A stretch of 64,000 nucleotides of DNA from a bacterium. GTDB taxonomy: Bacteria; Patescibacteriota; CPR2; UBA1875; JAJYID01. The translations under genes and the position numbers were made by a program. The stretch is from contig JAJYJC010000002.1 in NCBI GenBank assembly GCA_021796415.1, forward strand, positions 7,983 to 71,982, in the 5' to 3' direction. Below are positions 3,553-38,344 of the stretch, in pieces (the stretch's first letter is position 1; every line of letters starts with the position of its first letter). The notes under the pieces were generated by a model that did not search any database, was not told where the DNA came from, and saw only the letters and a list, made by a program, of their open reading frames with translations.

Positions 3553-4470
3553 CTAGTGTAGACTATCTATCTTTTTAATATTTTCTTCCAAGTAGCTTTC
3601 ATTCAATTTATTTGTAACAAAATTATATATCGGCCAGGAAGTGAAGACTAAGGCCGATTTAAGAACCCTGACCTCTGATTGTGATAATCTTCGAACAGTT
3701 TGATAGGCACTGAGATAAGTCTGCATCTCGTTTGCTGTAAAGACAGCCTTATTTACAAGGCAGAAATGCTTAATCGCCATCGACAAATCGATTGCAAAGA
3801 TGTTTCTATCAGAGAAGTCAAAATCAATGATTTTCAACTCTTTACTTTTCGTATTATATAGAATGTTTACTTTGCCAATATCATTATGACAGATACCATT
3901 CGGCAATTTGTCAAAATTCTCCCTTATATACGACAATTCAGTCACACCTCTATTAAGCAGATTTTTAAGAAATTGAGTTTGTGATTTCTTTTCTATTTTT
4001 CTAAAGTTCATTTCGTAATCAATAAATGTCAGCTTATGTCTCTTTAGGCGATTGAACTTTATTTCACTGGCAACATTGTGTAGTTTAGCTTGCGTTTTTG
4101 CCACTTCTCTGAGAACAATGATATCCCATGTTTGCTTCTCATGATGTTCAAAGTAGGGAATAACATAGGTAAACCGTTTGTCGGTAATCTTTGTAATATA
4201 TTCACCTTGCTTGTTTTTCGTAAAAGGAATGACAGGGAGATTCCTTTCATAACAAATTTTGAGGTACTTTGCTGTTGAATTTAGTGAGTAAAAACTTCGA
4301 GAATAATAGGCGCTCAAAGCATAAGGATAAGGACTCTTGAAAATATATTGTCTGTTCTGGGCTTTAATTATCGCTAGAAAGTGATGATCGGTAGTTTCCC
4401 ATTTTTTAATAACCTGCCAAGTATCAAAATATTGCGACAAAGTTCTGTTAACTAGTTTATCGTTAATCAT
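3553..4470 (-). CDS. protein-kinase-fold phosphotransferase (APH/choline-kinase-like)
   Basis: Catalytic-loop motif CHNDIGKVNILYN (HxDxxxxN) and IIDFDFS (DFG-equivalent). Start at MINDKL preceded by ggagag, with ATGA overlap to the upstream gene. Confidence 0.55.
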   Translation of the reverse strand: MINDKLVNRTLSQYFDTWQVIKKWETTDHHFLAIIKAQNRQYIFKSPYPYALSAYYSRSFYSLNSTAKYLKICYERNLPVIPFTKNKQGEYITKITDKRFTYVIPYFEHHEKQTWDIIVLREVAKTQAKLHNVASEIKFNRLKRHKLTFIDYEMNFRKIEKKSQTQFLKNLLNRGVTELSYIRENFDKLPNGICHNDIGKVNILYNTKSKELKIIDFDFSDRNIFAIDLSMAIKHFCLVNKAVFTANEMQTYLSAYQTVRRLSQSEVRVLKSALVFTSWPIYNFVTNKLNESYLEENIKKIDSLH

Positions 4471-4856
4471 CTTTTTCTCTCCAGTTCTTTTATAGCTTCT
4501 TTGATCGAGGCAACTATTATACCTGCTTTCTGCACGAAATCTAAAGACCAATCCTGCCTTTGTTTATCCCAAATAATAATTAAATTTTTACAGGTTTCGC
4601 CAGGATGCTCTGTATTCAAGGCTAAAAAATATCCCACTTCTATCCAGGTTCCTTCACAAGGGGTAGTCCCTGGATTTGCTATAAGAATATCAGCTTCTGT
4701 AATTGCTTTTAGATCATCGGGGAAGAATGTATCGGGAGAAGCTTGATCTGAGTCAAATTCCCAGTCATGAAATTCAAAACCAGAAACTTTTTTAATTCTT
4801 TCTTTCCAATCGCCTGCATATTCACTTGAAAGTCCTGCTAAATAAACTTTTTTCAT
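4467..4856 (-). CDS. nucleoside 2-deoxyribosyltransferase-like protein
   Basis: N-terminal MKKVYLAG...W and ILIANPG...EVGYFLAL resemble the NDT/Rcl fold. TATAAT lies immediately upstream of the ATG, so the mRNA may be leaderless. Confidence 0.45.
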   Translation of the reverse strand: MKKVYLAGLSSEYAGDWKERIKKVSGFEFHDWEFDSDQASPDTFFPDDLKAITEADILIANPGTTPCEGTWIEVGYFLALNTEHPGETCKNLIIIWDKQRQDWSLDFVQKAGIIVASIKEAIKELERKR

Positions 4857-5671: not shown

Positions 5672-7669
5672 ATGAGTCCTGTGGCTACTGAGGAAAAGGA
5701 TTTAATAGCTGCTTTACACGGCGAAAAGCACCAAACGGCAAGAAATGAACTGGTTGAGAAATATCAACCGTTAGTTCGTTATATTGCCAATAAACATGCT
5801 GTAAATGCTGAATACCTTGATGAGCTTATTCAAATCGGATCCATAGGGCTCATAAAGGCAATTGATCGATTCGATCCGTCAAAAGGTGTAAAAATCTCTA
5901 CCTATGCTACCTACAGAATTAAAGGTGAGATCAAGGATTACTTTCGTAATTCTGAACATCGGCTCTTGAGACCTTCCAGACAACTACATGAACTAGCTGT
6001 CAAGCTAGAAAATGCAAGGCAGACTCTCACGAGCACTCACCACAAACCTACGATCACTGAACTGGCTGAGTTTGTCGGTGTCTCTACGAAAAAGGCAGAA
6101 ACTGCTCTTAGCTTGCAAGTAAGTGCGCTTTCTCTTGATGATATAGGTCAAGATGAAAGTAGTGGTCAGACACTAACGGATATTCTCGGCAAAGAAGATG
6201 GAGCATTCTCGCAGCTAGAGTACTCCATGACACTTGACTTTCTGAACTGCTCTGCGCTGAGCCAACGGGAGTTAAGGGTCTTGCATCTGAGGTTCTACGA
6301 AGACCAGTCCCCGACAGAAATAGCAAAGTTGTTAGGCTGCTCTCAGTCTAACATCACCCTGATTATTAAGAAGGCCTTCATCAAACTTCTTGGCAGCACA
6401 AATAGGTCACTTAACTCTGTTTTGCCAGCTTTTAGCTTGGCGAGCTCCGATTTGAGTTTGACTGAAAGTGAAAAAGCTCTAGCACAAGAGGCAGTAAACG
6501 CCTTGGATTATCTAGGCAACGAATCCAAGACTGATGTATTAGTGCAAGAGCTTCATGCCAGAAGAATATCACTGGAAGCCCTGTTATTTGCCCTGAGAGC
6601 TAAATATGTCAAGTTCATAAGCAATGGGGGTAATGGGACTTGGCGAGTTTTACAACCAACACTAACGCCCTCGAGCTTTCATAAGATGTTTGCGGATGAT
6701 CTGGCTTTTATGGACAGGTTACTGCTGACTCTCTTAAAGCATGGTAACGGAGGGATGGAAAGGAGAATTCTCAGAGAAACCCTTAGAAACCAGCCTGGAT
6801 CTCTACGGCTACCCGAGTATGTTGTATTTGCACAATTGCTCGGAGATACTGCTAGGCGTGGTTTTGTCGAAGTGCAGGGAAGTGCAAACTCTGATCTTGT
6901 AATTCCGCTAATCACTTTAAGTGATATCTTCGAGAAGTACAGGAAAAGAGCACTCAATCAGGAAAGGCAAGCACAGCAAAAACGGTTACTAAAACCAAGC
7001 ATCAATGATCCGCGGTTTGAACAGTTACTTGCTCAGCCACTTTCCAGTATAGCAAGGTTCATGACGGTGTTACTGCAGTTCGGCTCGAATGGAACAACTC
7101 GTCGGAACCTTCGCAAGATTCTCTCTCAGAAAAGCAACGGATCGAGCTTCGATATGAGAGATTTCACACGAACAGTGTATAAGGCTCAAGATAAGGATAA
7201 CTGTTTCGAGAAATCTCTGATTGAAGTTATACCGGCAAAGAATCAAGCAGAGGAGGTATTTCGGCCCCTAATCAGATTGGATGACCTTATTGAGAAGCTG
7301 CCTAAAACTAAGGCAAACCACAACCAGCACAAAGCAACCTGCGATAATAACCCTCTTTTCGATGAGCTGGCTCAAATGCCACTCAGCCGGCCTGAAAAGG
7401 TGTTGGTGGTCTTATGGCAATTCGGACCTGAGGGGACTGATCGCAAGACCTTGAGGGAGACAATAAAAAACGAGGTCTCTAATCTACAAGTTAGCAGCCA
7501 CCATTTCTCCTATGCTCTTTATATGGCTGTCCACAATAACAATCGGTGGGGACAACTTGTTGAGATAAGAGACGCCTTAACGCCAGATGAACAAGTCATC
7601 TATCCCCTCGTAACCCTCGAGAATTTGTGTGTAAAATATCAACTCCCAAAAGGAGGTGTCGGCGAATAA
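5672..7669 (+). CDS. sigma-70 family sigma factor (SigB/F-like regions 2, 3 and 4) with a ~410-aa C-terminal extension
   Basis: Region 2 (YLDELIQIGSIGLIKAIDRFDPSKG...TYATYRIKGEI). Region 4 HTH (LSQRELRVLHLRFYEDQSPTEIAKLLGCSQSNIT). SD aaggaggtg upstream. The C-terminal part has about four copies of a ~55-aa repeat (LLQFGSNGTTRRNLRKIL / VLWQFGPEGTDRKTLRETI / LLKHGNGGMERRILRETL). Confidence 0.75.
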   Translation: MSPVATEEKDLIAALHGEKHQTARNELVEKYQPLVRYIANKHAVNAEYLDELIQIGSIGLIKAIDRFDPSKGVKISTYATYRIKGEIKDYFRNSEHRLLRPSRQLHELAVKLENARQTLTSTHHKPTITELAEFVGVSTKKAETALSLQVSALSLDDIGQDESSGQTLTDILGKEDGAFSQLEYSMTLDFLNCSALSQRELRVLHLRFYEDQSPTEIAKLLGCSQSNITLIIKKAFIKLLGSTNRSLNSVLPAFSLASSDLSLTESEKALAQEAVNALDYLGNESKTDVLVQELHARRISLEALLFALRAKYVKFISNGGNGTWRVLQPTLTPSSFHKMFADDLAFMDRLLLTLLKHGNGGMERRILRETLRNQPGSLRLPEYVVFAQLLGDTARRGFVEVQGSANSDLVIPLITLSDIFEKYRKRALNQERQAQQKRLLKPSINDPRFEQLLAQPLSSIARFMTVLLQFGSNGTTRRNLRKILSQKSNGSSFDMRDFTRTVYKAQDKDNCFEKSLIEVIPAKNQAEEVFRPLIRLDDLIEKLPKTKANHNQHKATCDNNPLFDELAQMPLSRPEKVLVVLWQFGPEGTDRKTLRETIKNEVSNLQVSSHHFSYALYMAVHNNNRWGQLVEIRDALTPDEQVIYPLVTLENLCVKYQLPKGGVGE

Positions 7670-7734: not shown

Positions 7735-8421
7735 CTAGCTCTCCAAGCTTTCCCAAGGGGGAATTTTACATTCATCATCCTTCGATTCTGATCGTACATC
7801 TTTGATATTTGCCACTCTTTTTGGAAATGCTATGCCCGAGGACTCTTTGTATTTATTTCGATATTCAAAAGCTTCCTGCCCCACATTAATCTGAATTTTT
7901 TGAAGATCAGGATTGAAGATAACAACTTCAGCAATGGTGTCCGGACTTGATTGGAACTCCCTTAATGACCATACGGGGAAATAAATATCTTGCTCTCTCA
8001 AGTATTTGTTAATAGCTTGATAATCAACCCCATCCTCTGTAAGTAAGTGCACTAAGAGGATATAAGTGGCAGGGAAATTTTGTTGTAGTTTTGTTCTTAT
8101 CAACTGGTCTAATAATAATTCTGGCGAAGATCTGTAAGTAGTTAATTCTACTTGAGTTATATCCATAGTTCCCGAATTAGGCTGCATGAGTAGAATATCA
8201 GGTGGTTCATCAAGTGGTAAACGAATATATGTAGGTAAATTACGAAAATTACTCAATACAAATGCTATCACTGCAGCTATTCTTGCTTCTCGAGCTTTTT
8301 GATATCTGGGATTTTTTTCTAGCTTATCTTGACCTATCGAAACAGCAAGTTCATCCAAATGCATAAAAACATTTGTAGGTGAATGCCATCTTTTATTAAA
8401 CTGCGAATTTTTCATATACAA
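7735..8421 (-). CDS. hypothetical protein (228 aa), AT-rich islet
   Basis: ORF only. Confidence 0.4.
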   Translation of the reverse strand: MYMKNSQFNKRWHSPTNVFMHLDELAVSIGQDKLEKNPRYQKAREARIAAVIAFVLSNFRNLPTYIRLPLDEPPDILLMQPNSGTMDITQVELTTYRSSPELLLDQLIRTKLQQNFPATYILLVHLLTEDGVDYQAINKYLREQDIYFPVWSLREFQSSPDTIAEVVIFNPDLQKIQINVGQEAFEYRNKYKESSGIAFPKRVANIKDVRSESKDDECKIPPWESLES

Positions 8422-8423: not shown

Positions 8424-9365
8424 TTATGTTACGTTTTTATCAATTATATCTACAAGAGAGTTAAAACCCTGCATGCTATCACGAAAATAATCCATCAGTT
8501 TATCTGCCATTTGATCTCCATGACTGTTATTGTGATTCTTCTCATCTGTGGCTCTCACTAAAGATATATTCATAAGCTGTAGTCTAATATTTTCACGATT
8601 GACGGGTAACTGTTTCTCAAATTCTTTAGCGTATTTCTCTTGCCAGTCAGGATGTGACCAATTTAATGCCCATGGATAAGTCAAAAGGGCTTCTAAGGGT
8701 TGTTGAATACCGTCCCAATCAATCAATACTAATCTCCCTGTGCTCAGCCTTATAACATTCCTGGGATTAAAATCACAATTACTCATTATCACTTTTTGCC
8801 GTCCCTCACATTCTCGCCATAAGTTATCTGCCTCTTTTCTAATATTCGTTTCCTCTGATGATTTAATTAAGTTCATCTCCAAAGCTCCAGTAAATCTTTC
8901 CCAAAATCTGACTTCTTCGGCTTTTGCTTGATAAAGAAAAACATCATCTTTTTGTAAAAGATCTTCTACATTAACTTTTATCAGGTCTTTAACAATTTTA
9001 ACCATATCTTCCGCAAGCAGCATATCAGATGTATTAAAGTCGAATCTATTACCTCCATAATATGGCAAAAGTATATAGCTACCATTTGCTTCATTAGTGG
9101 AGTAAACGTGGTCTGCTTTTGGCAAGTTTAAAACAGTAAACTCCTCTTTAACTTGAGGTAAAATATCTCTATAACACCTAGGTTCAAAGGAACCAAAAGG
9201 AACATATTTTAAAAGATGGGTAATTTCTGAGTCATTTGCACAATTAAATTTAAATATCCGGTTACTTACATTGTCAGTAATTTCTTCAACAAATTCCAAA
9301 CCAAAATCTTTTTCAATTTGATTTGCAATTTGGACGAAATCTTTTGGTTTTTTGATGGTTTCCAT
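8424..9365 (-). CDS. kinase-fold phosphotransferase-like protein
   Basis: CDFNPRNVIRL and LIDWDGI resemble APH/CotS catalytic and DFG-like motifs. Confidence 0.45.
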   Translation of the reverse strand: METIKKPKDFVQIANQIEKDFGLEFVEEITDNVSNRIFKFNCANDSEITHLLKYVPFGSFEPRCYRDILPQVKEEFTVLNLPKADHVYSTNEANGSYILLPYYGGNRFDFNTSDMLLAEDMVKIVKDLIKVNVEDLLQKDDVFLYQAKAEEVRFWERFTGALEMNLIKSSEETNIRKEADNLWRECEGRQKVIMSNCDFNPRNVIRLSTGRLVLIDWDGIQQPLEALLTYPWALNWSHPDWQEKYAKEFEKQLPVNRENIRLQLMNISLVRATDEKNHNNSHGDQMADKLMDYFRDSMQGFNSLVDIIDKNVT

Positions 9366-9450
9366 GCTCTTGATTATATTGTTATGTATACAAACTGTAA
9401 AATCTTACAAAAACTAGCCTTTTAAAAGCTCTTATTATGCCTTTATCTGC

Positions 9451-9479
9451 TTGACATGTGTATATTAGTGAGGTATTAT
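9451..9479 (+). promoter_or_regulatory. sigma-70-like promoter (TTGACA, 17-nt spacer, TATTAT)
   Basis: Near-consensus -35 and -10 hexamers with optimal spacing, read directly from the sequence. Confidence 0.5.
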
Positions 9480-9486
9480 TAGTTCG

Positions 9487-9613
9487 AGGTATGCAATAAT
9501 AGCTTTCGAAGCGCTGAGATGTTCCCTCGGAGCATCCGAGACTAAAGTCTCAGAACACCACTTCGGGAGACGCTGCCTCCCAAAAAACTTAAGCCGTTGG
9601 CTTGGGTTTTTTA
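9487..9613 (+). ncRNA. candidate small RNA (~125 nt) between a consensus promoter and an intrinsic terminator
   Basis: No ORF. Internal hairpins ctgaga...tctcag and gggag...ctccc. Terminal hairpin aagccgttggctt followed by a T6 run. Confidence 0.3.
9588..9613. terminator. bidirectional intrinsic terminator
   Basis: Hairpin ttaagcc-gtt-ggcttgg flanked by A6 upstream and T6 downstream. Confidence 0.5.
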
Positions 9614-9614
9614 T

Positions 9615-10262
9615 TTAGCTAAATAGTTCCTTACCATCGCCAATTATATTATTTTTAAGGATCTTGAAATATATTTTCCCATGCTTCTTGTCCTCTAGAT
9701 AATGTGCTATACAACCCGTTATCCAGTCAGCTATTTGAATATTTGCACTGGTAGTAGAATCAACCATCTCTATTTGAATAAGAGTATTTTTCGACATCTT
9801 AGGTAAGAGCTGAGCCTGTAACAATGAATTGAACTGACTTCTTTTGATGCCTTTTAAATGTCTCTGGTCGCAAAATGCTCTAAACTCCTTGTCCGCTATT
9901 GGCAAATACATTTCCAGTGTATCTCCTATAATCTGCGTATAGAGTTCCCCGGCCTTGATTTTGCCTTTATGAATAAACTCTTCGGGAATATTTTTCCTTT
10001 TAAGATAAGAATACCTAATTCTTACATCCAAGTCAGCGATGTATTGGACGGTTTTGATCCTCAGTTCATCTTGAATATTTACGTCAGAAAACTTAACCTC
10101 AGGTTGATTTCTCATCTTGCGAGGAAACTTTTCTTTGTGCCATGACCTAAACCTTTTCTCCGTGCGCCTTGGGTCACCAACGGTAAACGAACCAACTACA
10201 AAATATTCACCATCTTTTGATTTGTTAAATTGTCCGCTCTCATCAATATAAATATATGGCAC
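9615..10262 (-). CDS. DUF3800-like protein
   Basis: N-terminus MPYIYIDESGQF matches the DUF3800 hallmark (IYIDESG). Confidence 0.5.
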   Translation of the reverse strand: MPYIYIDESGQFNKSKDGEYFVVGSFTVGDPRRTEKRFRSWHKEKFPRKMRNQPEVKFSDVNIQDELRIKTVQYIADLDVRIRYSYLKRKNIPEEFIHKGKIKAGELYTQIIGDTLEMYLPIADKEFRAFCDQRHLKGIKRSQFNSLLQAQLLPKMSKNTLIQIEMVDSTTSANIQIADWITGCIAHYLEDKKHGKIYFKILKNNIIGDGKELFS

Positions 10263-10387
10263 TTATCCTCCTTGTGTAGATTTATTGACTGAATAAATCT
10301 CTCTTAGAGCTTATATTTTACTCCTTTTGAGCTTCAAAATAAAGGTAAAAAGTGCTTAGCAACTTGGTTTTTGCATTCCAATTTAAA

Positions 10388-10480
10388 TCAAAATCAGCTA
10401 TAATAAGTACTCAAATTAGCCGGATGAGTTTGGGGGTAACCCTAAGCTTTCAAAGCTTGCAACCTTGAAAAGGAGAAGAG
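10388..10480 (+). promoter_or_regulatory. conserved promoter/leader module (copy 1): caaaatcagcTATAATaagtactcaaattagc ... tttgaaaaggaga
   Basis: The 33-nt block is nearly identical to the one at 14381-14414. TATAAT is at 10399-10404. Confidence 0.5.
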
Positions 10481-10481
10481 A

Positions 10482-10730
10482 ATGAAGGCTCGTGTGCGCT
10501 TTAATGCAAATAACTTAAAAAGGCCGCTAAGTCCTTTCGATTGGAAATGCCTTTTGTGGGGCACAACACTGTCGTTGACAAGCGTAGTTGTTATGTTCTT
10601 TGCAGCATTCTTTCAATTGCAGACAACTCATCCGACAATGGTCCAATGGATTACTCCGATGCCGGTTTTGATCGGTATAGGGTTAATGATTTTTGTCTCA
10701 TCAAAGACGCATTGGAAAGGGAGTGAGTGA
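10482..10730 (+). CDS. small membrane protein paralog 1 (82 aa)
   Basis: SD aaaaggagaag. Two hydrophobic helices. Confidence 0.55.
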   Translation: MKARVRFNANNLKRPLSPFDWKCLLWGTTLSLTSVVVMFFAAFFQLQTTHPTMVQWITPMPVLIGIGLMIFVSSKTHWKGSE

Positions 10731-10984
10731 AGATGGAAAGCAGTATTGCAGTTGTTGCAGGCCGCTTGCAAAAGAAGAGGCGAAAGATTGACCCGCTTTG
10801 GTATTTGGCGGTGGCTGTCTTCTGCAACTTCATCATCATTGGGTGTCTCGCTTATGGAATACCCATGGCTGATACAGCGATCGGGAAAGCTATCATCACC
10901 GCAAGCGTAACGCCTTGCCTTATCGCAGCGGTCTGTGTATGGCTTGGTGTAGGAGGATTAATCTCAGAAAAACGACGGAGGTGA
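10727..10984 (+). CDS. small membrane protein paralog 2 (85 aa)
   Basis: Repeated start context gggagtgagtgaagatgg. Two TM helices. Confidence 0.55.
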   Translation: MKMESSIAVVAGRLQKKRRKIDPLWYLAVAVFCNFIIIGCLAYGIPMADTAIGKAIITASVTPCLIAAVCVWLGVGGLISEKRRR

Positions 10985-10991
10985 ATGAAAG

Positions 10992-11261
10992 ATGGTGTCA
11001 AAGGAAGAGCTCAAAAAGATCAAAAAGAGCTGGCGCAAAGCCTCTTATGGCGGTTTTCTTGTTGCTATGGTCGCAGGGGCAATTCAATATTTCTCTGTGT
11101 TGCATCTCGTCCTGGCGGATGAGAGAACTCTCGGGGGTTTCATAATACTGATTCTCCTCGTGGTATCCGTTGCCTTTATACCTTTCAGTCTGCTTTATGG
11201 CATTGTATGTGCCCTTGTCTCAATATATCCCGAGAAGGCTTTCGGGGAAAACGGGAGGTAA
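10992..11261 (+). CDS. small membrane protein paralog 3 (89 aa)
   Basis: Start context ggaggtgaatgaaagatgg. Two TM helices. Confidence 0.55.
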   Translation: MVSKEELKKIKKSWRKASYGGFLVAMVAGAIQYFSVLHLVLADERTLGGFIILILLVVSVAFIPFSLLYGIVCALVSIYPEKAFGENGR

Positions 11262-11268
11262 ATGAAAG

Positions 11269-11514
11269 ATGGTAACAAGGGGTGAATCTTTTAAGGCTCG
11301 TTATGGCATGAAGTTCAGCACTGTATATTGGTTAATAGTCGTTTTTTGTCAGACGCTCGTTCTGGTAATCGCGGTAGCCTTGATGTCATTTGATGTCAGT
11401 CGGGTGAACTTGACTGCATTGACGGGTATCATTCTGGTGCTGGTTGTGCTATCGGTTTGCTTTGCTATCGGCGCGCTTTATGCCGCCAAGGATGAGCGAA
11501 AACCAATCGAATAA
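11269..11514 (+). CDS. small membrane protein paralog 4 (81 aa)
   Basis: Start context gggaggtaaatgaaagatgg. Two TM helices. Confidence 0.55.
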   Translation: MVTRGESFKARYGMKFSTVYWLIVVFCQTLVLVIAVALMSFDVSRVNLTALTGIILVLVVLSVCFAIGALYAAKDERKPIE

Positions 11515-11525
11515 GAAAGGGGTGA

Positions 11526-11714
11526 ATGACGATGGGACCAGTCAAGGTTCTTACAGGAGACCGTTTGCTTTTTCTTGCGGCTGCCTTTGCGGCATTTGCC
11601 GTATTTGCAGTTGTTGCCGATAAGGTCTACAGTTCTCTTATGTGGGGGATCTTTTCAGTGATAGGTCTGATCGGTGAGGCTTTTTGCGTACTTGTGCTTT
11701 ACAGGCGAAGATAG
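11526..11714 (+). CDS. small membrane protein paralog 5 (62 aa)
   Basis: Start context aaggggtgaatgacgatgg. Two TM helices. Confidence 0.5.
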   Translation: MTMGPVKVLTGDRLLFLAAAFAAFAVFAVVADKVYSSLMWGIFSVIGLIGEAFCVLVLYRRR

Positions 11715-11891
11715 CCTCAAACGTTCAGTATGGGAGAGGATGTGGATTTTATATCCGCATGCAGTACCTCTCCTTTTTTCTTTGATATCATAAGTCTGCT
11801 ATCTCGCAATTTCCATTGTACACTTAAAAAACTGGAAGTTGGTAATGTGAGCACGACTTCTGTATAATATATTTATAAATTAGGTTCTTTT

Positions 11892-12557
11892 ATGACAAAT
11901 GAAGTGACAAAAAATGAAACAAAAACAGACCCAAAGGGCCAATTGAGGGAATTGACCAATGAGGAAATCACTGCGATTGGAGAAGAGAGAGAAAGTTTCT
12001 ACAAATTATATAGTGACACTGTTCGAGAATATGGCGATTCAGCAATAAATCTATTGTTAAGATTAATTGACTTTGGTTATAAAATTGCTCAAATCTCCGG
12101 AGTAATTGCTGGATTTGGTTTCGTAGCAATCAGCCAAGTAAAAAATGTGTGGCTATTCCTTTCAGGGGAATCTCTGTTAATTTTTGTTATTATTTACGGC
12201 ATATTCAAAGTAAAAAACATATATGAGAATAATTTAGATAATGTCAATAAATCAATGACTAAAGCAACTGCTGCATTTGAAAATAAAAGTAAAATACACA
12301 TCGAGATGTATCAGGAGCTGGCAGACAACTACACCTCAGACGGTAAAACCTCTTTGCATGGCGCTTACTTTGGAACAAAAATAATTGAAGCCAATGATAA
12401 GCTTTTAAAAACCTTTGATACGAAAGAAATTGACCCCAAAAAAGATAACTTCCTCACGAATATGTTAATCATCCTACCAGTAGGCGCTACCCTGCTTATT
12501 CTTTCGTTCTTTATTAGCTGGAGCATGGTTATTAATTTAGTACATCTTTTCTTATAA
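11892..12557 (+). CDS. hypothetical membrane protein (221 aa)
   Basis: ORF with internal and C-terminal hydrophobic segments. Confidence 0.4.
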   Translation: MTNEVTKNETKTDPKGQLRELTNEEITAIGEERESFYKLYSDTVREYGDSAINLLLRLIDFGYKIAQISGVIAGFGFVAISQVKNVWLFLSGESLLIFVIIYGIFKVKNIYENNLDNVNKSMTKATAAFENKSKIHIEMYQELADNYTSDGKTSLHGAYFGTKIIEANDKLLKTFDTKEIDPKKDNFLTNMLIILPVGATLLILSFFISWSMVINLVHLFL

Positions 12558-12642
12558 AACTTTAAAAGATAATGAGGCAAACTATATCGCACCGCCCCAC
12601 TATCAATATCTAAAGACGCCAAAATTTGTTATAATTTCCCTT

Positions 12643-13095
12643 ATGAATACTTTAATAGTCCTTACCGCAAAATATCTATACCTAATCATTGTCTTGATTG
12701 CCATAATTGTTTTCTTGAAAGCAGATAAGCAGGATAAGGTTAGACTCATTAAACTGGCAGTTATAGCGGGTCCCTTAGCTTTAATCATGGTTTTTATATC
12801 CAGTCATCTTTTCTACGACACTAGACCTTTTGTAGTTCAAAACATCCAACCCTTGATTCCTCATTCCCCAGACAATGGTTTTCCATCAGATCATACTTTG
12901 ATTTCAATGCTGGTTGCTCTTAGTATCTATCGAGTTAAGAAGAATGCTGGTGTCTTGCTTGCTATTCTTGCACTAATAGTTGGCACTTCAAGAGTACTGG
13001 CACATATTCATTATCCGGTTGATATCTTAGGGAGTATTGTCATTGCAATGATTGCTGTGGGACTAGCTTCACTTCTTTTTAAAAAACGTAATTAA
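12643..13095 (+). CDS. PAP2-family phosphatase (undecaprenyl-/lipid-phosphate phosphatase-like)
   Basis: PAP2 motifs PSDHT (PSGH-like) and SRVLAHIHYPVD (SRxxxxxHxxxD). Confidence 0.65.
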   Translation: MNTLIVLTAKYLYLIIVLIAIIVFLKADKQDKVRLIKLAVIAGPLALIMVFISSHLFYDTRPFVVQNIQPLIPHSPDNGFPSDHTLISMLVALSIYRVKKNAGVLLAILALIVGTSRVLAHIHYPVDILGSIVIAMIAVGLASLLFKKRN

Positions 13096-14347: not shown

Positions 14348-14380
14348 ACCGAAATCTTCTTTACGCCTCGTAAAAACGGG

Positions 14381-14483
14381 CAAAATCAGCTATAATAAGG
14401 TACTCAAATTAGCTAGATAAGGTTGGAGGATAGGACTCTAACCTTTTTGAAAAGCTCGAACTTTGAAAAGGAGATGTATTCTC
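14381..14483 (+). promoter_or_regulatory. conserved promoter/leader module (copy 2)
   Basis: caaaatcagcTATAATaaggtactcaaattagc plus tttgaaaaggaga, matching copy 1 at 10388. Confidence 0.5.
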
Positions 14484-14759
14484 ATGATCACTATTACTGA
14501 TAAGGATGGTGAGGTTTGCGCGAAGTTGGACGACCTGGGAGCGGTCTTGGTCTGGATGCAAAACAAAACCATAGCCCTCATTAACGAAGGGGCGAAAAGT
14601 TTTGAATTTGAGGCGCGAGATGCAAATAATCAGCCTCAGATTTCCGTTACTGGTTATCCCACTTTGGGAGAAAATGATACCCTCATGTTTCCTTCTGTGA
14701 GGTGGGATTTTCATTGGCTTGAAAACGCTCAAAGCGAATTCAGCAATGGAGGTGAGTAA
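14484..14759 (+). CDS. hypothetical protein (~91 aa)
   Basis: ATG preceded by aaaaggaga. Confidence 0.4.
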   Translation: MITITDKDGEVCAKLDDLGAVLVWMQNKTIALINEGAKSFEFEARDANNQPQISVTGYPTLGENDTLMFPSVRWDFHWLENAQSEFSNGGE

Positions 14760-14761
14760 AG

Positions 14762-15034
14762 ATGAATGCTGGACAGAAGACCGGAAAAAGGTATGCAAGG
14801 TTCAACACCTGGGTCCTTCCCGAGGAGTTAACTGTTTTACGCGATATCTCAGGGTTGGAACTTGTTGGTAGTCATCCAGATAACGACAACCCCGCTCGAA
14901 CCATTGCCTACTGCAGTATAGAATCTGGGAAGTTTGATGCTGCTCTCTCAAGGCTCAACCAACACTTTTGGGGAGTAAAGGAGGTATCAGAGAAGGAAGC
15001 GGGAAGTTACCGTAACAGTTTACTGAAACTCTAA
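14762..15034 (+). CDS. hypothetical protein (90 aa)
   Basis: ORF tightly coupled to the upstream gene. Two tandem terminator hairpins follow at 15064-15135. Confidence 0.4.
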   Translation: MNAGQKTGKRYARFNTWVLPEELTVLRDISGLELVGSHPDNDNPARTIAYCSIESGKFDAALSRLNQHFWGVKEVSEKEAGSYRNSLLKL

Positions 15035-15396
15035 TGTCATATATTCCGCTTGTAATTGGAGAAAGGCGGGGACAAGAAAAATGTCTTGTCCCCGCCACAG
15101 GGGACTTTTTGAAAAAAAGAGTCCTTTTTTCTTTGGGTAAAAAGTGCTCAGCAAAGATCGTTTCTGCGATACATCTCCGATTATTGTGTATACGATAGAT
15201 ATTCCTTGCGATTTTGTTTAGTTCGGCTTGATGAAGAGGCTGCCAAGAAATAATCTTGAGATTCGGTCCCATCTGCTCAAAGCTGGCAGGTAGTCCCGCA
15301 TTACCGGTTGCAGTAAACGTTAAAATATAGTATAATCTTTTTAGTGTATAGAGGGTCCACAAGAGTGTGGACTTATTTATTGAACATTGAAAAGAG

Positions 15397-16923
15397 GTGA
15401 GACTAATGGGTAGAAGGGGTAGGCAAAGGATATGGACTGAGGAAGTTGTCATCAACACGCTTAAATCTCTGAAAAAGAATGGCGAACCGGTTAACACGCA
15501 GTACCTGATTAACAACCACCGATCATTGCGTTCGGCTATGGTGAAGAGATTCGGTTCCTGGGAAAAAGCTGTTGTTGCAGCCGGGCTAGATCCCAAAAAG
15601 GAACGAGCTAAAAACCAACCTACTAAGAGCAATAATGCCCGGAAAGAAGCAGTGGTCAAGACTACGCCTCAGTCTAAACGGAAATCTTCCAGGAAATGGC
15701 GTGGTACTTACAAGCAATGGAGTAAGGATAAGATCATTGCCCAGTTGCATGAAATCAAGCTCAACGGAGAAGCCATCAGTTATAATTCATTGAGACAAAA
15801 TGGCTACAGTGGCCTTGCGGCTGCAGCTTGCCGTTACTTCGGTTCATGGGAAAAAGCAATCATAGCGTCTGGTTTTGATCCCGACCAAGAAAGCTTGGTT
15901 AAGAGATCTGGAAAGCCTTCTGAAAGTTGGGATAAAGACAAGGTCATTTCTAGATTCAAAGAGATCAAAGCCAAAGGCGGCAGTATCAACTATAAGGCCA
16001 TACAAGAAAATCATTATGGTCTTTGGAGTGCGGCTTGTTACTACTTTGGTTCCTGGGAAAAGGCGGTCACTGTTGCTGGCTTTAACCCCGATGAGGAGAA
16101 GCTGTTTCAGAAATTTGCGCTGAAGAGGAAGATAGGAAGACATCCCTTGGCCCCTTCAGAGGAATATGAGCGATCCTTAGTAAAGCAAGGCAAGCTCAAT
16201 GTTCTCTTTCCAGCCATGAGACAGCTTAGAGAACAATTAGGACGAGCTGCGACAGACGTCGAAATTGCACATTTCCTCAAAAAGTCGGTGGAGGAGATTG
16301 CTAATTGGCAATCAAGCAGAGAGAGGCTAATCCTCTCTTACCTGCCACTAGCAGAGAGCTATGCAAGGCATTTTTATGAGCATCAAGTCAAGGTAAGGCA
16401 TCTGACTTCTGACAATAAGTACAACAGAGAAGAATTCAGGGCTTTTGGCAGTCTATGGCTAGTTGAAGTTATGGAGGAATTCGATTGGGGCGACGAATTC
16501 GGTGGTTTTTCTGGCTATTTCAAGGTAGCATTTGAAAGGAGGATATATTACCGATATCTGATCAAGGAGATCGAAAATCCTATCATATCATTTGACTATG
16601 AAATAGAGTCTGGGCGAGATGGTAGCAGAATGATCCTCGCGGATATAATTGCTGACCCTCGGTCTCTACCAGAACCAGAATACGACCCAAAACAGTTATC
16701 CTTCATAAAAAGCGCCCTTAATCAACTGCCGGGAAGTCTCAAGCATGCACTTATGTGGGATCTTGGCATGGAATTTCATGACAAGACGCCCGCGGAGTTT
16801 GCAACTTTTCTGGGGGTTGCCATTGGAGACATAGACGAGCTCATCAAAACTGCTATTAGGAAGTTCTCAAGTATAGTTTTTCAACCCGGACTTCCTGACG
16901 GCGATCAGGCTTTAGCCTCATGA
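15397..16923 (+). CDS. sigma-70-like protein with three N-terminal ~55-aa repeats
   Basis: C-terminal HTH LKHALMWDLGMEFHDKTPAEFATFLGVAIGDIDELIKTAIRKF (region 4-like). Central segment LILSYLPLAESYARHF...FSGYFKVAFERRIYYRYL (region 2-like). The N-terminal repeats share W..EKVI...KEIK..G..I.Y..L..N...L..A...YFGSWEKA...AGF[DN]P. Confidence 0.5.
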   Translation: MRLMGRRGRQRIWTEEVVINTLKSLKKNGEPVNTQYLINNHRSLRSAMVKRFGSWEKAVVAAGLDPKKERAKNQPTKSNNARKEAVVKTTPQSKRKSSRKWRGTYKQWSKDKIIAQLHEIKLNGEAISYNSLRQNGYSGLAAAACRYFGSWEKAIIASGFDPDQESLVKRSGKPSESWDKDKVISRFKEIKAKGGSINYKAIQENHYGLWSAACYYFGSWEKAVTVAGFNPDEEKLFQKFALKRKIGRHPLAPSEEYERSLVKQGKLNVLFPAMRQLREQLGRAATDVEIAHFLKKSVEEIANWQSSRERLILSYLPLAESYARHFYEHQVKVRHLTSDNKYNREEFRAFGSLWLVEVMEEFDWGDEFGGFSGYFKVAFERRIYYRYLIKEIENPIISFDYEIESGRDGSRMILADIIADPRSLPEPEYDPKQLSFIKSALNQLPGSLKHALMWDLGMEFHDKTPAEFATFLGVAIGDIDELIKTAIRKFSSIVFQPGLPDGDQALAS

Positions 16924-17050: not shown

Positions 17051-17224
17051 CTTAAAAAGGTTGGGGGCCATTTAAATTCCGTAAACCATTGGGGTTCAGA
17101 ACGGTACCATATGAAACAAGACAAAAAAACAAGACAAAAAAAGTTCTTGACTTGATAAACCTCTTATGTTAAAGTCTTGCCATTAAAATCAAATAGGAGG
17201 GGCAGGAGGGAAGAAAGGATCCCT

Positions 17225-17551
17225 ATGCGACGTTTTCATTCTCTCCTGACAGTTCTATCATTAACGCTTCTATCGGCTACACCGGCCTTTGCGGCCCCTG
17301 CCGATCTCTCTAAGGTACAAAGTTTTGCCCAGAGCATTATACAAGTGCTCGTAACACTGGCCGGCCTGCTTGCAGCCGGTTTTTTTGTTATGGGCGGTAT
17401 CGGCTACATCACAAGCTCAGGTAACCCAGAACATCTCGACAAGTCTAAAAGAACTATTATCTTTTCAGCTCTAGGACTGGCGGTTTCGATCGGCGCCTTT
17501 GTTATCTCAAATATAATAGCCGAACTCGCGACAACGGCATTCGGCAGATAG
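17225..17551 (+). CDS. T4SS pilin-like protein (signal peptide plus two TM helices; VirB2/TrbC-like topology)
   Basis: Signal peptide ending AFAAP. Motif GFFVMGGIGYITSSGNPEHLDKSKRTI is repeated in the N-terminus of the next gene. RBS aggaggg. Confidence 0.5.
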   Translation: MRRFHSLLTVLSLTLLSATPAFAAPADLSKVQSFAQSIIQVLVTLAGLLAAGFFVMGGIGYITSSGNPEHLDKSKRTIIFSALGLAVSIGAFVISNIIAELATTAFGR

Positions 17552-17560
17552 GAAAAAACG

Positions 17561-18835
17561 ATGAAGAAATTAATCCCTGCCATATTTACCGCGGCGATTA
17601 CTTCACTCATTCCAACCATAACTTTTGCCGCTTCCAACGCTGATGTTGAGGGTTTTGCCCGCGACACTTTGACAACTCTTACTGTCTTAGCATCCATTGC
17701 CGTTGTCTTTTTCCTGATCGGCGGAGGGTATCTATATATAACCTCCACGGGGAAACCAGAGGCGCTTGATAAGGCCAAAAGAACTATCAGAAAAGCTCTG
17801 ATCGGGCTCGTAATCGTTATCGGTGCCAGTGTCATTTCCTCGATCCTAAACGGAGCGCTCACTCCGTCAAGTTCCGGCGGTATCGGGACGGCTCTAAACT
17901 TAGCTCCCATTCAGCCGGCTGCCCAAAACGGATCGCTGGCCCAAATACTTCTTGACGCTATTTCCGGTTTCCTGCAAAACATTGTTCAGTCGGCGACAAA
18001 GCCGATTATAGACGGCATTACCTGGTTTCTTACAAACACTCCGGCCTTATCAACCAACTCAGTTGTTTTTAAGTTTTGGCTCTTAATGGTCGGCATTACC
18101 GATTCACTTTTCGCCGTTGTTATCGCGCTCCTCGGCCTCCATGTCATGAGCGCCTCGACCTTCGGCTTTGAAGAGCTCAGCGTCAAACAGCTCATGCCGA
18201 GAATCGGTCTTGCTTTCCTTGTCGCCAACACCTCAATATTTTTGATTGACTGGATCATCCTCCTTTGCCAAACCTTAATCCATGCAGTTCTTAACGCCAC
18301 CGGAGGTCTGGGCCAAGCTTGGATCCTAAACGCCTTTGACCCGGCCGCCCTTGTCAGCGGTTCAACGGCTCTCATTACTCTGATATTTATGATTATCTTT
18401 GTGGTCCTAGCCATAGTTCTGCTTCTTTTCTATATCAGCCGTTTAATGATCCTTGCCTTCGGCGCCGTTATCTCACCGCTGGTCTGCCTGCTCTGGCTTC
18501 TGCCTAAGGCGTCCAACTTCGCCGAAAACGCAGTCAGAATGTATTTTGTGACGCTCTTTTCCATTTTTATCCATGTCGTTATCATTCAACTGGCCTCGGC
18601 TTTTCTTACCATACCCGGCCAGCAGGGGACAAATCCGATCATCTCCGTTCTAATCGGTATCGCTCTTCTTTCTATACTACTTAAAAGCACGGCAACCACG
18701 ACTCAACTCGCCCTATCCGCACAGACAGCGGGAACGTTCAAGAAATACGGCGGCCAGCTACTAAATGTAATGAGCTCGTCTGCCAGCGGGACATCATCGT
18801 CCAGAGCGGCGGCTCAGAAAGCGAGTACAAAATGA
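17561..18835 (+). CDS. VirB6/TrbL-like polytopic membrane protein with an N-terminal pilin-like domain
   Basis: N-terminal ~100 aa paralogous to the 17225 gene (VFFLIGGGYLYITSTGKPEALDKAKRTI). At least six further TM helices follow. Confidence 0.5.
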   Translation: MKKLIPAIFTAAITSLIPTITFAASNADVEGFARDTLTTLTVLASIAVVFFLIGGGYLYITSTGKPEALDKAKRTIRKALIGLVIVIGASVISSILNGALTPSSSGGIGTALNLAPIQPAAQNGSLAQILLDAISGFLQNIVQSATKPIIDGITWFLTNTPALSTNSVVFKFWLLMVGITDSLFAVVIALLGLHVMSASTFGFEELSVKQLMPRIGLAFLVANTSIFLIDWIILLCQTLIHAVLNATGGLGQAWILNAFDPAALVSGSTALITLIFMIIFVVLAIVLLLFYISRLMILAFGAVISPLVCLLWLLPKASNFAENAVRMYFVTLFSIFIHVVIIQLASAFLTIPGQQGTNPIISVLIGIALLSILLKSTATTTQLALSAQTAGTFKKYGGQLLNVMSSSASGTSSSRAAAQKASTK

Positions 18836-21695: not shown

Positions 21696-21699
21696 AAAA

Positions 21700-36417: not shown

Positions 36418-36462
<45 letters not shown>

Positions 36463-38288: not shown

Positions 38289-38344
<56 letters not shown>

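What the first reader, a model, noticed from the sequence alone, without database searches (positions are those of the whole stretch)
10482..11714. Tandem array of five small paralogous two-TM proteins with a reiterated start context
Five consecutive 62-89-aa ORFs each encode two hydrophobic helices. Four of them are each preceded by the same 20-nt motif, g(g/a)ggtgaatgaaagATGg or a variant containing two in-frame ATGs. The proteins have diverged in sequence but keep the same architecture. This pattern suggests a diversifying family such as holin/antiholin-like proteins, small toxin or immunity proteins, or membrane microproteins.
Basis: seen in the sequence. Interest (0 to 1): 0.6.

Follow-up and report, generated by a model that had tools for sequence, protein, structure and literature searches.

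The report
Operon of five membrane-hairpin microproteins
This is a real, tightly packed five-gene operon for tiny two-helix membrane proteins in a probable ultra-small (Patescibacteria-like) bacterium; the repeated "motif" is just the strong ribosome-binding site overlapping each upstream stop codon, the five proteins are not demonstrably related, and their function is unknown.

Summary
The five ORFs are real: 10482-11714, + strand, 82/83/89/81/60-62 aa. They form one transcription unit with a promoter, a conserved ~70-nt leader, five abutting genes and an intrinsic terminator. Each product has a basic N-tail, two hydrophobic helices around a 7-11-aa loop, and a basic C-tail, which predicts an in-out-in hairpin.

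The "20-nt motif" is the genome's canonical extended Shine-Dalgarno, GGAGGTGA, 6-7 nt before the ATG. Its TGA or TAA is the stop codon of the upstream gene, so the genes are translationally coupled. Only the O3 and O4 junctions are near-identical (18/19).

Paralogy is not supported. Smith-Waterman scores fall within a segment-preserving null, and hhalign probabilities are ≤1.1%.

An exhaustive search of 1.84 billion representative proteins found homologues only for O2 and O4:
- O2 has a 78% identical orthologue in a related genome, with dN/dS 0.18.
- O4 has two homologues at 35-41%, both in other small two-helix arrays.
- O1, O3 and O5 are orphans.

In the related genome the promoter/leader and O2 are conserved, but the neighbouring genes are unrelated two-helix genes. 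The array is therefore a mosaic with whole-gene turnover. It lies in a plastic zone beside a Patescibacteria-type T4SS and defence genes.

It fails the tests for VirB2 pilins, VirB3/TcpE and holins. Function is inferred at low confidence: strain-variable membrane protection (immunity or exclusion) factors.

The parts
10340..10481 (+). Conserved promoter plus 5' leader module. It holds -35 TTCCAA at 10376-10381, a 17-nt spacer, -10 TATAAT at 10399-10404, then a ~70-nt leader ending in the SD AAGGAG at 10470-10475.
   Evidence: It is 83% identical to L007 9580-9714 even though the first gene there is unrelated. It is 81% identical to window 14381-14474, and the related copy at 14378-14483 is 78% identical to L013 195-274. 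There is no Rfam match.
10427..10448 (+). Possible leader hairpin: AGTTTGGGG pairs with CCCTAAGCT.
   Evidence: RNAalifold on four copies gives 12 pairs, two with changes on both sides. Covariation is not significant, with 47 of 500 shuffles scoring as high. The hairpin is plausible but unproven.
10482..10730 (+). O1, 82 aa, two-helix hairpin, orphan.
   Evidence: ORF and hydropathy. Only a self hit among 1.84e9 representative proteins. The in-frame codon score is the best of six frames but weak.
10733..10984 (+). O2, 83 aa, two-helix hairpin. SD GGGAG lies at 10719-10723, and the O1 stop at 10728-10730 is 2 nt before the ATG.
   Evidence: A 78% identical orthologue (P0004) occupies position 2 of the L007/L008 array. 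dN/dS is 0.18 at dS 0.68. DNA homology starts at the ATG and ends at 10988, inside the junction.
10977..10995 (+). O2/O3 junction GGAGGTGAATGAAAGATGG. It combines the extended SD, the O2 stop TGA (10982-10984), a 7-nt spacer and the O3 ATG.
10992..11261 (+). O3, 89 aa, two-helix hairpin, orphan.
   Evidence: Found only on near-identical contigs.
11254..11272 (+). O3/O4 junction GGAGGTAAATGAAAGATGG. It combines the SD, the O3 stop TAA (11259-11261), a 7-nt spacer and the O4 ATG.
   Evidence: one mismatch to the O2/O3 junction.
11269..11514 (+). O4, 81 aa. It has a conserved N-terminal amphipathic helix (T[RK]G[ED]xFxA[KR][YF]G) followed by a two-helix hairpin.
   Evidence: Homologues P0006 (35%) and P0007 (41%) sit in other small two-helix arrays, L012 and L013. 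The AF2 model has pLDDT 78 with helices at 4-12, 16-41 and 48-76.
11532..11714 (+). O5, 60 aa from ATG 11532, or 62 aa from ATG 11526. SD GGGGTGA lies at 11519-11525. Two-helix hairpin, orphan.
   Evidence: By analogy with O3 and O4 (SD plus 6-7 nt), 11532 is the likelier start. Public gene calls differ, giving 60 or 62 aa.
11732..11780 (+). Intrinsic terminator: a GGGAGAGG...CCUCUCC stem followed by UUUUUU.
   Evidence: RNA fold gives -27.4 kcal/mol, z -3.2 against shuffles. The next gene has its own promoter-like site at 11839-11868.

Best explanation
Shown:
- The region is one transcription unit. It runs from a promoter (-35 TTCCAA, -10 TATAAT) through a conserved leader, five abutting genes and an intrinsic terminator.
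- It encodes five different 60-89-aa inner-membrane hairpin proteins. By the positive-inside rule both basic tails are cytoplasmic and only a 7-11-residue loop is outside.
- Each downstream gene starts 6-7 nt (9 nt before O2) after a strong Shine-Dalgarno (GGAGGTGA, or a variant: GGGAG before O2, GGGGTGA before O5), the genome's canonical extended RBS (by textbook knowledge complementary to the 16S rRNA 3' end; the 16S gene is not in the window). At the O2/O3 and O3/O4 junctions its TGA or TAA is the stop codon of the gene before (O1 and O4 stop 2-4 nt outside the next SD). Ribosomes finishing one gene can therefore re-initiate on the next. The last residues of O1-O3 (GSE, RRR, ENGR) are partly or wholly encoded by the next gene's RBS.
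- The five proteins are not demonstrably paralogues. The array is a mosaic. In a related genome (neighbouring genes at dS about 0.4-1.3) the promoter/leader and O2 are kept under purifying selection, while the genes around O2 are unrelated two-helix genes of similar size.
- O4 relatives occur in other arrays behind the same kind of leader and terminator.

Inferred (low confidence):
- The products act individually inside the membrane as strain-variable accessory protection factors. They would work like immunity, entry-exclusion or superinfection-exclusion proteins, blocking membrane-acting toxins or incoming DNA or protein from phage or from sibling T4SS.
- They belong to the plastic, defence-gene-rich zone beside the T4SS of a probably Patescibacteria-type bacterium.

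Confidence in the anatomy is about 0.85. Confidence in the protective function is about 0.3.
For: - ORFs, hydropathy and charge distribution.
- Coding frame is the best of six for all five ORFs.
- RBS census: all four GGAGGTGA sites in the window precede an ATG.
- Terminator.
- The O2 orthologue has dN/dS 0.18, comparable to PAP2 (0.10), TrbC (0.12) and PrgI (0.18).
- Only O2 and O4 have any homologue among 1.84e9 representatives of about 15e9 proteins. This agrees.
- Mosaic arrays occur in L007/L008, L012 and L013.
- The promoter/leader is conserved (81-83%) across unrelated first genes, and the terminator at window 15065-15138 is 92% identical to the one after the O4 homologue in L013.
- Context supports a conflict-related role. 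In the window the array adjoins a DUF3800 gene (PADLOC candidate PDC-M04A) and the DUF3800-V RNA. In L007 it adjoins an EcoRI-type methylase, GmrSD/HNH, SIR2, a DUF87 ATPase and a PDDEXK nuclease. In L008 a Replic_Relax protein, a VirD4-like ATPase and a large serine recombinase lie nearby.
- The T4SS cluster lies 5.5 kb downstream.
Against: - No cognate toxin, phage or exclusion partner was identified.
- The five proteins have no hit in PADLOC, PHROGs, Pfam or NCBIfam.
- Guilt by association rests on only two independent genome contexts.
- The L013 array lies next to uvrA, with no defence gene visible on a 1.7-kb contig.
- Translational coupling and a fixed gene count could instead point to a stoichiometric complex.
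- O1, O3 and O5 have no comparative support that they are expressed or functional.
- The Patescibacteria assignment is inferred, not tested phylogenetically. It rests on a PrgI/VirB4 cluster that carries a VirB2-like pilin (stated to be unique to that group in PMC12857230) and a 23S rRNA with a ~950-nt insertion.
Confidence: 0.4

Rival explanations
1. The proteins are accessory inner-membrane subunits of the neighbouring T4SS. They would be VirB3/TcpD/TcpE/ConC-like small two-TM proteins that dock to VirB4 or VirB6.
For: - Same architecture as VirB3-type proteins: about 10-15 kDa, two TM helices, short cytoplasmic N- and C-tails (PMC12857230).
- The array is within 5.5-7.3 kb of the T4SS cluster in both the window and L007.
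- O3 gives a weak hit to NCBIfam TcpD_dom (E 0.077, 12.9 bits against a cut-off of 24).
Against: - There are no significant matches to PrgI, TcpE or TcpD models.
- A bona fide PrgI already sits beside virB4 at 18832-19341.
- The T4SS core is about 80% identical in DNA between the two genomes, while four of five array genes are replaced. That is unlikely for structural subunits.
- The array has its own promoter and terminator, and unrelated cargo separates it from the T4SS.
Confidence: 0.15
2. The array is a divergent VirB2-like pilin array of the kind known in Patescibacteria: 2-11 tandem pilin genes with about 25% identity.
For: - Such arrays are documented near virB4 in Saccharimonadia and Microgenomatia (PMC12102498; PMC10633639).
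- This array is tandem, divergent and within 20 CDS of virB4.
Against: - No hit to PF04956 or PF18895 even at E≤1, whereas the real pilin at 17177-17551 hits both.
- hhalign of the array profile against that pilin gives probability 0.35%.
- There are only two hydrophobic segments and no separate signal peptide. The pilin has three segments.
- The charge distribution predicts termini inside, the opposite of a mature pilin.
Confidence: 0.05
3. The proteins are holin-like or other pore-forming small toxins (class II holin, pinholin or a type-I-toxin-like protein), possibly with holin/antiholin dual starts.
For: - A two-TM N-in/C-in layout with a charged C-tail is the class II holin layout (from established knowledge).
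- O5 has two in-frame ATGs (M-T-M), and O2 has an in-frame GTG-AAG-ATG.
- The best PHROG hit for O2 is a holin family (E 0.013).
Against: - That hit is not significant.
- No endolysin or phage genes are adjacent.
- No DNA match to phage genomes, and no relatives of O2 or O4 in IMG/VR.
- The 'first start' lies inside or next to the SD and is out of frame in O3 and O4. The O2 orthologue lacks the Lys codon.
- A perfect -10 box and strong SDs suggest constitutive expression, which five lethal pore-formers would not tolerate.
Confidence: 0.08
4. Most of the array (O1, O3, O5) consists of evolutionarily young or neutral ORFs with no specific function. Hydrophobic hairpins that insert harmlessly into the membrane would be carried along in an expression cassette whose selected cargo is O2 and/or O4.
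For: - O1, O3 and O5 have no homologue anywhere, not even in the congeneric L007.
- Codon-usage support for O1 and O2 is weak.
- There is whole-gene turnover at fixed positions.
Against: - Every ORF has a well-spaced strong SD, abuts its neighbours with no non-coding gaps, and keeps the same tail-TM-loop-TM-tail layout.
- In L007, L012 and L013 the replacement genes have the same architecture. This argues for selection on the class of product.
Confidence: 0.12
5. The ORFs are fragments of one decayed multi-pass transporter gene, i.e. a pseudogene broken by frameshifts.
For: Ten hydrophobic helices lie in a row. There are weak sub-threshold hits to EamA and other membrane families.
Against: - Each ORF has its own SD and ATG and charged termini.
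- O2 and O4 keep exactly the same boundaries in their homologues, under purifying selection.
- No Pfam hit approaches its threshold.
Confidence: 0.02

Closest known systems
VirB2-like pilin gene arrays next to the T4SS of Patescibacteria (PMC12102498; PMC10633639; the 'Sec-secreted array' of TM7x, PMC7427843)
   Same: Tandem array of 4-6 small, hydrophobic proteins with very divergent sequences, close to a monoderm-type T4SS in a probably patescibacterial genome. Content varies between strains.
   Different: - No match to the TrbC or T4SS_pilin models.
- No signal peptide or third hydrophobic segment.
- Predicted termini inside rather than outside.
- Separate operon 5.5 kb from the cluster, which has its own pilin genes.
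VirB3-type small T4SS membrane proteins (PrgI PF12666; TcpE/ConC PF12648; TcpD)
   Same: Size of about 7-10 kDa here against 10-15 kDa for VirB3. Two TM helices and short cytoplasmic tails at both ends.
   Different: No significant sequence match. Not adjacent to virB4, where PrgI already sits. Five different copies that turn over between close relatives.
Class II holins / pinholins (e.g. phage 21 S21) and the lambda S dual-start motif (from established knowledge)
   Same: Two TM helices, N-in/C-in, charged C-terminus, size 60-90 aa. O5 and O2 have nearby in-frame alternative starts.
   Different: No lysis cassette or prophage. The alternative starts are explained by the SD spacer and are not conserved. 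No significant HMM hit. Five genes in one constitutive-looking operon.
Small membrane exclusion and immunity proteins, and arrays of orphan immunity genes (e.g. phage T4 Imm, which I recall as about 83 aa with two TM helices; colicin and bacteriocin membrane immunity proteins; tandem immunity arrays at T6SS, T7SS and CDI loci). From my own knowledge, not tested here.
   Same: - Tiny polytopic membrane proteins acting within the membrane.
- Tandem, strain-variable gene sets.
- Location among defence and mobile genes.
- 'Moron-like' units with their own promoter and terminator.
   Different: No homology to any of them. No cognate toxin or phage identified. Function not tested.

Membership tests
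VirB2/TrbC-like T4SS pilins (PF04956, PF18895), including patescibacterial pilin arrays | Significant match to the TrbC/VirB2 or T4SS_pilin HMM. PMC12102498 used i-E<0.001 and more than 50% coverage. | tested here: not met
   No hit for O1-O5 even at E≤1. The positive control at 17177-17551 hits PF04956 (6.4e-9) and PF18895 (6.7e-6). hhalign of A1 against that pilin gives probability 0.35%.
VirB2/TrbC-like T4SS pilins | A precursor with an N-terminal signal peptide followed by two hydrophobic helices, i.e. three hydrophobic segments, with the mature termini outside. | tested here: not met
   Each ORF has only two hydrophobic segments, whereas the window's pilin has three. K/R-rich N- and C-tails predict termini inside. 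No dedicated signal-peptide predictor was available.
VirB2/TrbC-like T4SS pilins | Tandem divergent copies encoded near virB4 (within about 20 CDS). | tested here: met
   The array is tandem and ends 8.2 kb (about 16 CDS) upstream of virB4 at 19911. It is, however, a separate operon.
VirB3-type proteins (PrgI PF12666, TcpE PF12648, TcpD NF040686) | Small protein with two TM helices and short cytoplasmic N- and C-tails. | tested here: met
   Hydropathy and charge distribution. AF2 hairpin model for O4.
VirB3-type proteins | Significant HMM match, and/or a gene immediately upstream of virB4. | tested here: not met
   The best match is O3 to TcpD_dom at E 0.077, 12.9 bits against a cut-off of 24. 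There is no PrgI or TcpE hit. The position next to virB4 is taken by PrgI at 18832-19341 and a TraC-like gene.
Class II holins / pinholins | Two TM helices, N-in/C-in, charged C-terminal tail. | tested here: met
Class II holins / pinholins | Part of a lysis cassette (adjacent endolysin or spanin) in a phage or prophage, or a significant holin-family match. | tested here: not met
   - Neighbours are a DUF3800 gene, a 221-aa membrane protein and PAP2.
- Best PHROG holin hit E 0.013; Pfam Phage_holin_3_7 E 0.23.
- No phage DNA match.
- No relatives in IMG/VR.
Class II holins / pinholins | A conserved dual-start (holin/antiholin) motif. | tested here: not met
   An in-frame second start exists only in O5 (ATG-ACG-ATG) and as a GTG inside the SD of O2. 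It is out of frame in O3 and O4. The O2 orthologue has GTG-ATA-AGC-ATG, without Lys.
   In the segment-preserving shuffle test the best pairs reach z 2.9 and 2.5, and the other eight are below 1. hhalign probabilities are ≤1.1%. No cross-hits appeared in the exhaustive search or by tblastn.
Immunity / exclusion membrane proteins | Genetic linkage to a cognate toxin or transfer system, and a protective phenotype. | not testable with these tools
   Only contextual evidence exists: defence and mobile genes flank the arrays. No toxin gene was recognised.

The most novel reading that the evidence does not exclude
The locus is one instance of a cassette-exchange system in ultra-small epibiotic bacteria. 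A conserved expression module (promoter, about 70-nt leader, strong SD, and hairpin terminators) would host interchangeable genes. Many of these encode in-out-in membrane hairpin microproteins. They would be swapped gene by gene at the shared 'stop-in-SD' junctions (GGAGGTGA...ATG). The result would be strain-specific repertoires of membrane protection or recognition factors that control who can inject what through the T4SS or phage entry routes.
Probability: 0.12. Interest if true: 0.7.

Novelty: new variant of a known kind. Interest (0 to 1): 0.4.

Why it matters
Patescibacteria depend on envelope machines such as the T4SS and type IV pili for their epibiotic life, and most of their small membrane proteins are unannotated.

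This array shows that these genomes carry another class of tandem membrane microproteins besides the known VirB2-like pilin arrays. The new class is strain-variable and has the opposite topology.

It also shows that whole genes are exchanged inside a conserved promoter/leader/terminator frame.

If the products prove to be immunity or exclusion factors, they would give a handle on kin discrimination and phage resistance in a group that is almost intractable experimentally.

If they are neutral young ORFs, the locus is a clean natural example of how membrane hairpins are gained and lost.

On present evidence this is a well-characterised operon of orphan genes, not a new mechanism.

Tried and rejected
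- Pfam, NCBIfam, PHROGs and PADLOC scans of all five proteins gave nothing at or near threshold.
- A word-indexed homologue search with O4 found only O4 itself.
- The same tool with a concatenation of O1+O2+O3+O5 saturated at 8000 candidates and returned nothing, not even self hits. That search was wasted.
- The same tool with the O4-family alignment found only the three known members.
- A genome-contig scan using the neighbouring 665-aa sigma-like protein as a synteny anchor found only three distant N-terminal matches (27-29%) in unrelated phyla. It did not find the source genome.
- A metagenome scan with the O4 family re-found only L013.
- blastn of 9400-12700 against plasmids and phages gave no match.
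- Viral-contig scans for the leader, the terminator and the O2 and O4 families found nothing.
- A PDB sequence search found nothing.
- Rfam at permissive thresholds found nothing in the leader or the operon.
- Literature and supplement searches for the assembly and sample accessions found nothing useful, so the taxon is inferred only.
- Covariation support for the leader hairpin was not significant with four sequences.
- The pseudogene (broken transporter) reading was rejected on the conserved ORF boundaries.
Full report
**Observation**

The region 10482-11714 contains five consecutive + strand ORFs, exactly as described:
- O1: 10482-10730, 82 aa.
- O2: 10733-10984, 83 aa.
- O3: 10992-11261, 89 aa.
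- O4: 11269-11514, 81 aa.
- O5: 11526 or 11532 to 11714, 62 or 60 aa.

No ORF on the opposite strand exceeds 62 aa.

A Kyte-Doolittle scan shows two hydrophobic stretches in each product. K+R counts per segment are N-tail 6/6/7/4/2, inter-helix loop 0/1/1/1/1 and C-tail 2/4/2/3/3. By the positive-inside rule this gives a cytoplasmic N-tail, TM1, a 7-11-residue outside loop, TM2 and a cytoplasmic C-tail.

A codon-usage log-likelihood trained on 17 long ORFs of the window is highest in the annotated frame for all five ORFs. O3-O5 score 0.12-0.22 bits per codon, within the range of long genes. O1 and O2 score about 0 but still beat the other five frames.

Within the 64-kb window the only other small two-helix ORFs with similar hydropathy that look like real genes are at 1425-1715 (-) and 53557-53757 (-); the remaining hits of the scan are mostly ORFs inside other genes. 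Five in a row is therefore not a chance pattern.

**The 'motif'**

The exact 19-mer GGAGGTGAATGAAAGATGG occurs at 10977 (before O3). It occurs with one mismatch at 11254 (before O4). By chance 0.03 copies are expected.

The versions before O2 (GGGAGTGAGTGAAGATGG) and O5 (GGGGTGAATGACGATGG) are one base shorter. They share only the SD core, a TGA and the ATG context.

GGAGGTGA corresponds, by textbook knowledge, to the full complement of the 16S rRNA 3' end; the 16S gene is not in the window. All four occurrences in the window are followed by ATG 5-7 nt later. These include unrelated genes at 5672, 14762 (GGAGGTGAGTAAAGATG) and about 47940 on the - strand.

Within the array, the TGA or TAA of this RBS is the stop codon of O2 and O3; the stops of O1 (TGA 10728-10730) and O4 (TAA 11512-11514) lie 2-4 nt outside the next SD. 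Stop-to-start gaps are 2, 7, 7 and 11 or 17 nt. The motif is therefore a 'stop-in-SD' junction that produces translational coupling. The C-terminal residues of O1-O3 (GSE, RRR, ENGR) are partly or wholly encoded by the next gene's RBS.

The same junctions occur in the related arrays L007, L012 and L013.

The second ATG in the O3 and O4 junctions is out of frame. Only O5 has two in-frame ATGs. O2 has an in-frame GTG that lies inside its SD region.

**Transcription unit**

Upstream of O1 lies a perfect -10 TATAAT (10399-10404). A TTCCAA sits 17 nt further upstream and is conserved in three promoter copies. The consensus scan did not call this promoter because the -35 is weak.

After O5 an RNA stem-loop, GGGAGAGG...CCUCUCC plus U6 (11732-11780), folds at -27.4 kcal/mol with z = -3.2. 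The next gene (11892-12557) has its own promoter-like site.

**Are the five paralogues?**

Against globally shuffled sequences only O2-O4 (z 3.7) and O3-O4 (z 4.1) stand out. That null destroys the TM layout.

With shuffles confined to each tail, TM or loop segment the values drop to 2.9 and 2.5 (5/500 and 12/500). This is not significant over ten comparisons. The other eight pairs have z<1.

Profile-profile comparison of the O4 family with the O2 family, O3, O5 and O1 gives probabilities of 0.35-1.1%. Common descent is therefore unsupported. Only the architecture is shared.

**Homologues elsewhere**

There are no significant Pfam, NCBIfam, PHROG or PADLOC matches.

An exhaustive phmmer search with the concatenated five proteins covered 1.84 billion representatives of about 15 billion proteins. 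Besides the self hits it returned only three proteins:
- P0004, 78% identical to O2.
- P0006, 35% identical to O4.
- P0007, 41% identical to O4.

O1, O3 and O5 are orphans. The window is identical to NCBI contig DAHWUJ010000001.1 (GCA_027334665.1), and only near-identical copies exist in a few other samples.

**Related loci**

P0004 lies in L007/L008, a related genome. Its T4SS genes are 80% and its PAP2 82% identical in DNA to the window's.

There the array reads as an 84-aa gene, the 83-aa O2 orthologue, a 67-aa gene and an 89-aa gene. All four are two-helix proteins, and three soluble ORFs follow.

blastn shows that the promoter/leader (window 10296-10475) and O2 (10733-10988) are conserved at about 81-82%. 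The first gene, and everything after the O2/O3 junction, has no similarity at DNA or protein level.

The O2 pair has dN/dS 0.18 at dS 0.68. This is the same regime as PAP2 (0.10 at 0.71), TrbC (0.12 at 0.41) and PrgI (0.18 at 1.30). O2 is thus an ordinary conserved gene, and its neighbours were replaced rather than mutated beyond recognition.

The O4 homologues sit last in other small arrays:
- L013: a 45-aa basic protein, then 82-, 79- and 82-aa two-helix proteins, next to uvrA.
- L012: a 68-aa Cys-rich ORF, then a 104-aa two-helix protein with a Cys-rich tail, a 60-aa two-helix protein and the 83-aa O4 homologue. A further junction follows at the contig end.

The O4 family shares an N-terminal motif, T[RK]G[ED]xFxA[KR][YF]G. 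AF2 models this as a short helix before the hairpin (pLDDT 78). Foldseek finds only non-significant hairpins.

**A conserved expression frame**

The leader of this operon recurs at three other places:
- Window 14378-14483 (81%), upstream of an operon for two soluble proteins of about 90 aa.
- L007 (83%).
- L013 (78% to the copy at 14378-14483).

The double-hairpin terminator at window 15065-15138 is 92% identical to the one after the O4 homologue in L013, although the proteins there are only 41% identical or unrelated.

No Rfam family matches. A leader hairpin is plausible, but its covariation is not significant with four sequences.

**Genomic context**

The window is cellular. It carries 23S and 5S rRNA, ribosomal protein S1, IF-2, PriA and NrnA.

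From 17177 it carries a T4SS cluster: a TrbC/VirB2-like pilin, a 424-aa protein with a T4SS_pilin domain, PrgI, a TraC-like gene, VirB4 and an M23 peptidase.

A monoderm-type (PrgI) T4SS with VirB2-like pilins is reported as peculiar to Patescibacteria (PMC12857230; PMC12102498). The 23S gene is about 950 nt longer than the model. I therefore infer, without a phylogeny, a Patescibacteria-type organism.

The array sits between a DUF3800 gene and a 221-aa membrane protein followed by PAP2. The DUF3800 gene hits PADLOC candidate PDC-M04A and has the known DUF3800-V RNA beside it. Both flanks have 33-37% GC. The array has about 46% GC, like the core genes.

In L007/L008 the array is flanked by an EcoRI-type methylase, GmrSD/HNH, an S24 peptidase, SIR2, a DUF87 ATPase and a PDDEXK nuclease. 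Further on lie a Replic_Relax protein, a VirD4-like ATPase and a large serine recombinase. The array is therefore part of a plastic zone, rich in defence and mobile genes, next to the T4SS.

**Comparison with known systems**

- *VirB2-like pilin arrays.* Patescibacterial arrays (2-11 tandem genes, about 25% identity) are the closest described phenomenon. O1-O5 nevertheless fail the HMM criterion, lack the signal-peptide segment and have the opposite predicted topology.
- *VirB3/TcpD/TcpE-type proteins.* They share the architecture but not the sequence or the position.
- *Class II holins.* They share the architecture, but there is no lysis context, no significant hit, no conserved dual start and no viral relative.
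- *Broken transporter gene.* Excluded by the conserved ORF boundaries.

**Interpretation**

The anatomy (operon, coupling, hairpin topology, mosaic turnover) is well supported. Function is inferred only.

Four observations make a strain-variable protective role the most likely single reading, at about 0.3:
- Whole genes are replaced while the class of product is retained.
- The unit is autonomous, with its own promoter and terminator.
- The expression signals look constitutive.
- The location is among defence and transfer genes.

By a protective role I mean immunity or entry/superinfection exclusion acting in the membrane.

The alternatives are T4SS accessory subunits (0.15), largely neutral young ORFs riding with O2 and O4 (0.12), pore-forming toxins or holins (0.08) and pilins (0.05).

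**Verdict**

This is a real and tidy operon of orphan membrane microproteins with interesting cassette-like turnover, but no demonstrated new mechanism. Interest 0.4.

Noticed in passing
window 14378-14483 and 15065-15138 (also L007 9580-9714 and 11569-11628; L013 195-274 and 1212-1284): There is a second copy of the promoter/leader module, 81% identical to 10389-10476. It drives an unrelated operon for two soluble proteins of about 90 aa (14484-15034). That operon ends in a double-hairpin terminator that is 92% identical to the terminator after the O4 homologue in another organism (L013). The non-coding 'frame' is far better conserved than its cargo. It has no Rfam match, and covariation in its hairpin is not significant with four copies.
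   Followed up: partly
window 9485-9580 (+) and 9615-10262 (-): A DUF3800-V RNA (Rfam RF02964, 71.5 bits) has its own TTGACA/TATTAT promoter and a terminator. It lies beside a DUF3800 gene that also matches the PADLOC candidate defence family PDC-M04A. This pair is the array's immediate upstream neighbour.
   Followed up: partly
window 35669-39549 and 40901-41017: The 23S rRNA gene spans 3881 nt against a 2925-nt model, an insertion of about 950 nt. The 5S gene lies 1.35 kb downstream. No 16S gene is adjacent and the 64-kb window has no tRNA. This rRNA organisation is unusual and typical of CPR/Patescibacteria.
   Followed up: no
window 17177-22323: The T4SS cluster contains a TrbC/VirB2-like pilin, a 424-aa protein with a T4SS_pilin domain, PrgI, a TraC-like gene, VirB4 and an M23 peptidase. 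This is a monoderm-type T4SS with pilins, as described for Patescibacteria. It is about 80% identical in DNA to the L007 cluster but lies on the other side of the array and in the opposite orientation there.
   Followed up: partly
window 5672-7669 and 15406-16923: Two unusually large sigma-70-like proteins. One is 665 aa with regions 2, 3 and 4. The other is 505 aa with an HNH_repeat domain plus region 3. The N-terminus of the first has only distant (27-29%) matches, in Pelagibacteraceae and Bacteroidota contigs.
   Followed up: no
window 28124-29194 (-): A stand-alone reverse transcriptase gene (RVT_1, E 2.9e-25), possibly a retron, DGR or group II intron. It lies downstream of large VWA (22385-24496) and AAA_5 (24864-27002) genes.
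   Followed up: no
window 4467-4856 (-), 7735-8415 (-), 8424-9365 (-), 12643-13095 (+), 60699-62663 (-): Several genes have a TATAAT box only 6-10 nt upstream of the ATG and no SD. This suggests leaderless or near-leaderless mRNAs alongside the genes with strong SDs.
   Followed up: no
window 3-478 vs L007 12880-13356; window 12604-13079 vs L007 12388-12863: The PAP2 (82%) and DUF3768-region (88%) segments are shared with the related genome but in inverted relative order. Between them the window carries about 10 kb not present there (kinases, the sigma-like gene, DUF3800). L007 carries restriction and defence genes instead. This marks a rearrangement hot spot around the array.
   Followed up: partly
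window 1425-1715 (-) and 53557-53757 (-): Two further isolated small two-helix membrane ORFs (96 aa and 66 aa). Neither shows significant similarity to the array members.
   Followed up: partly
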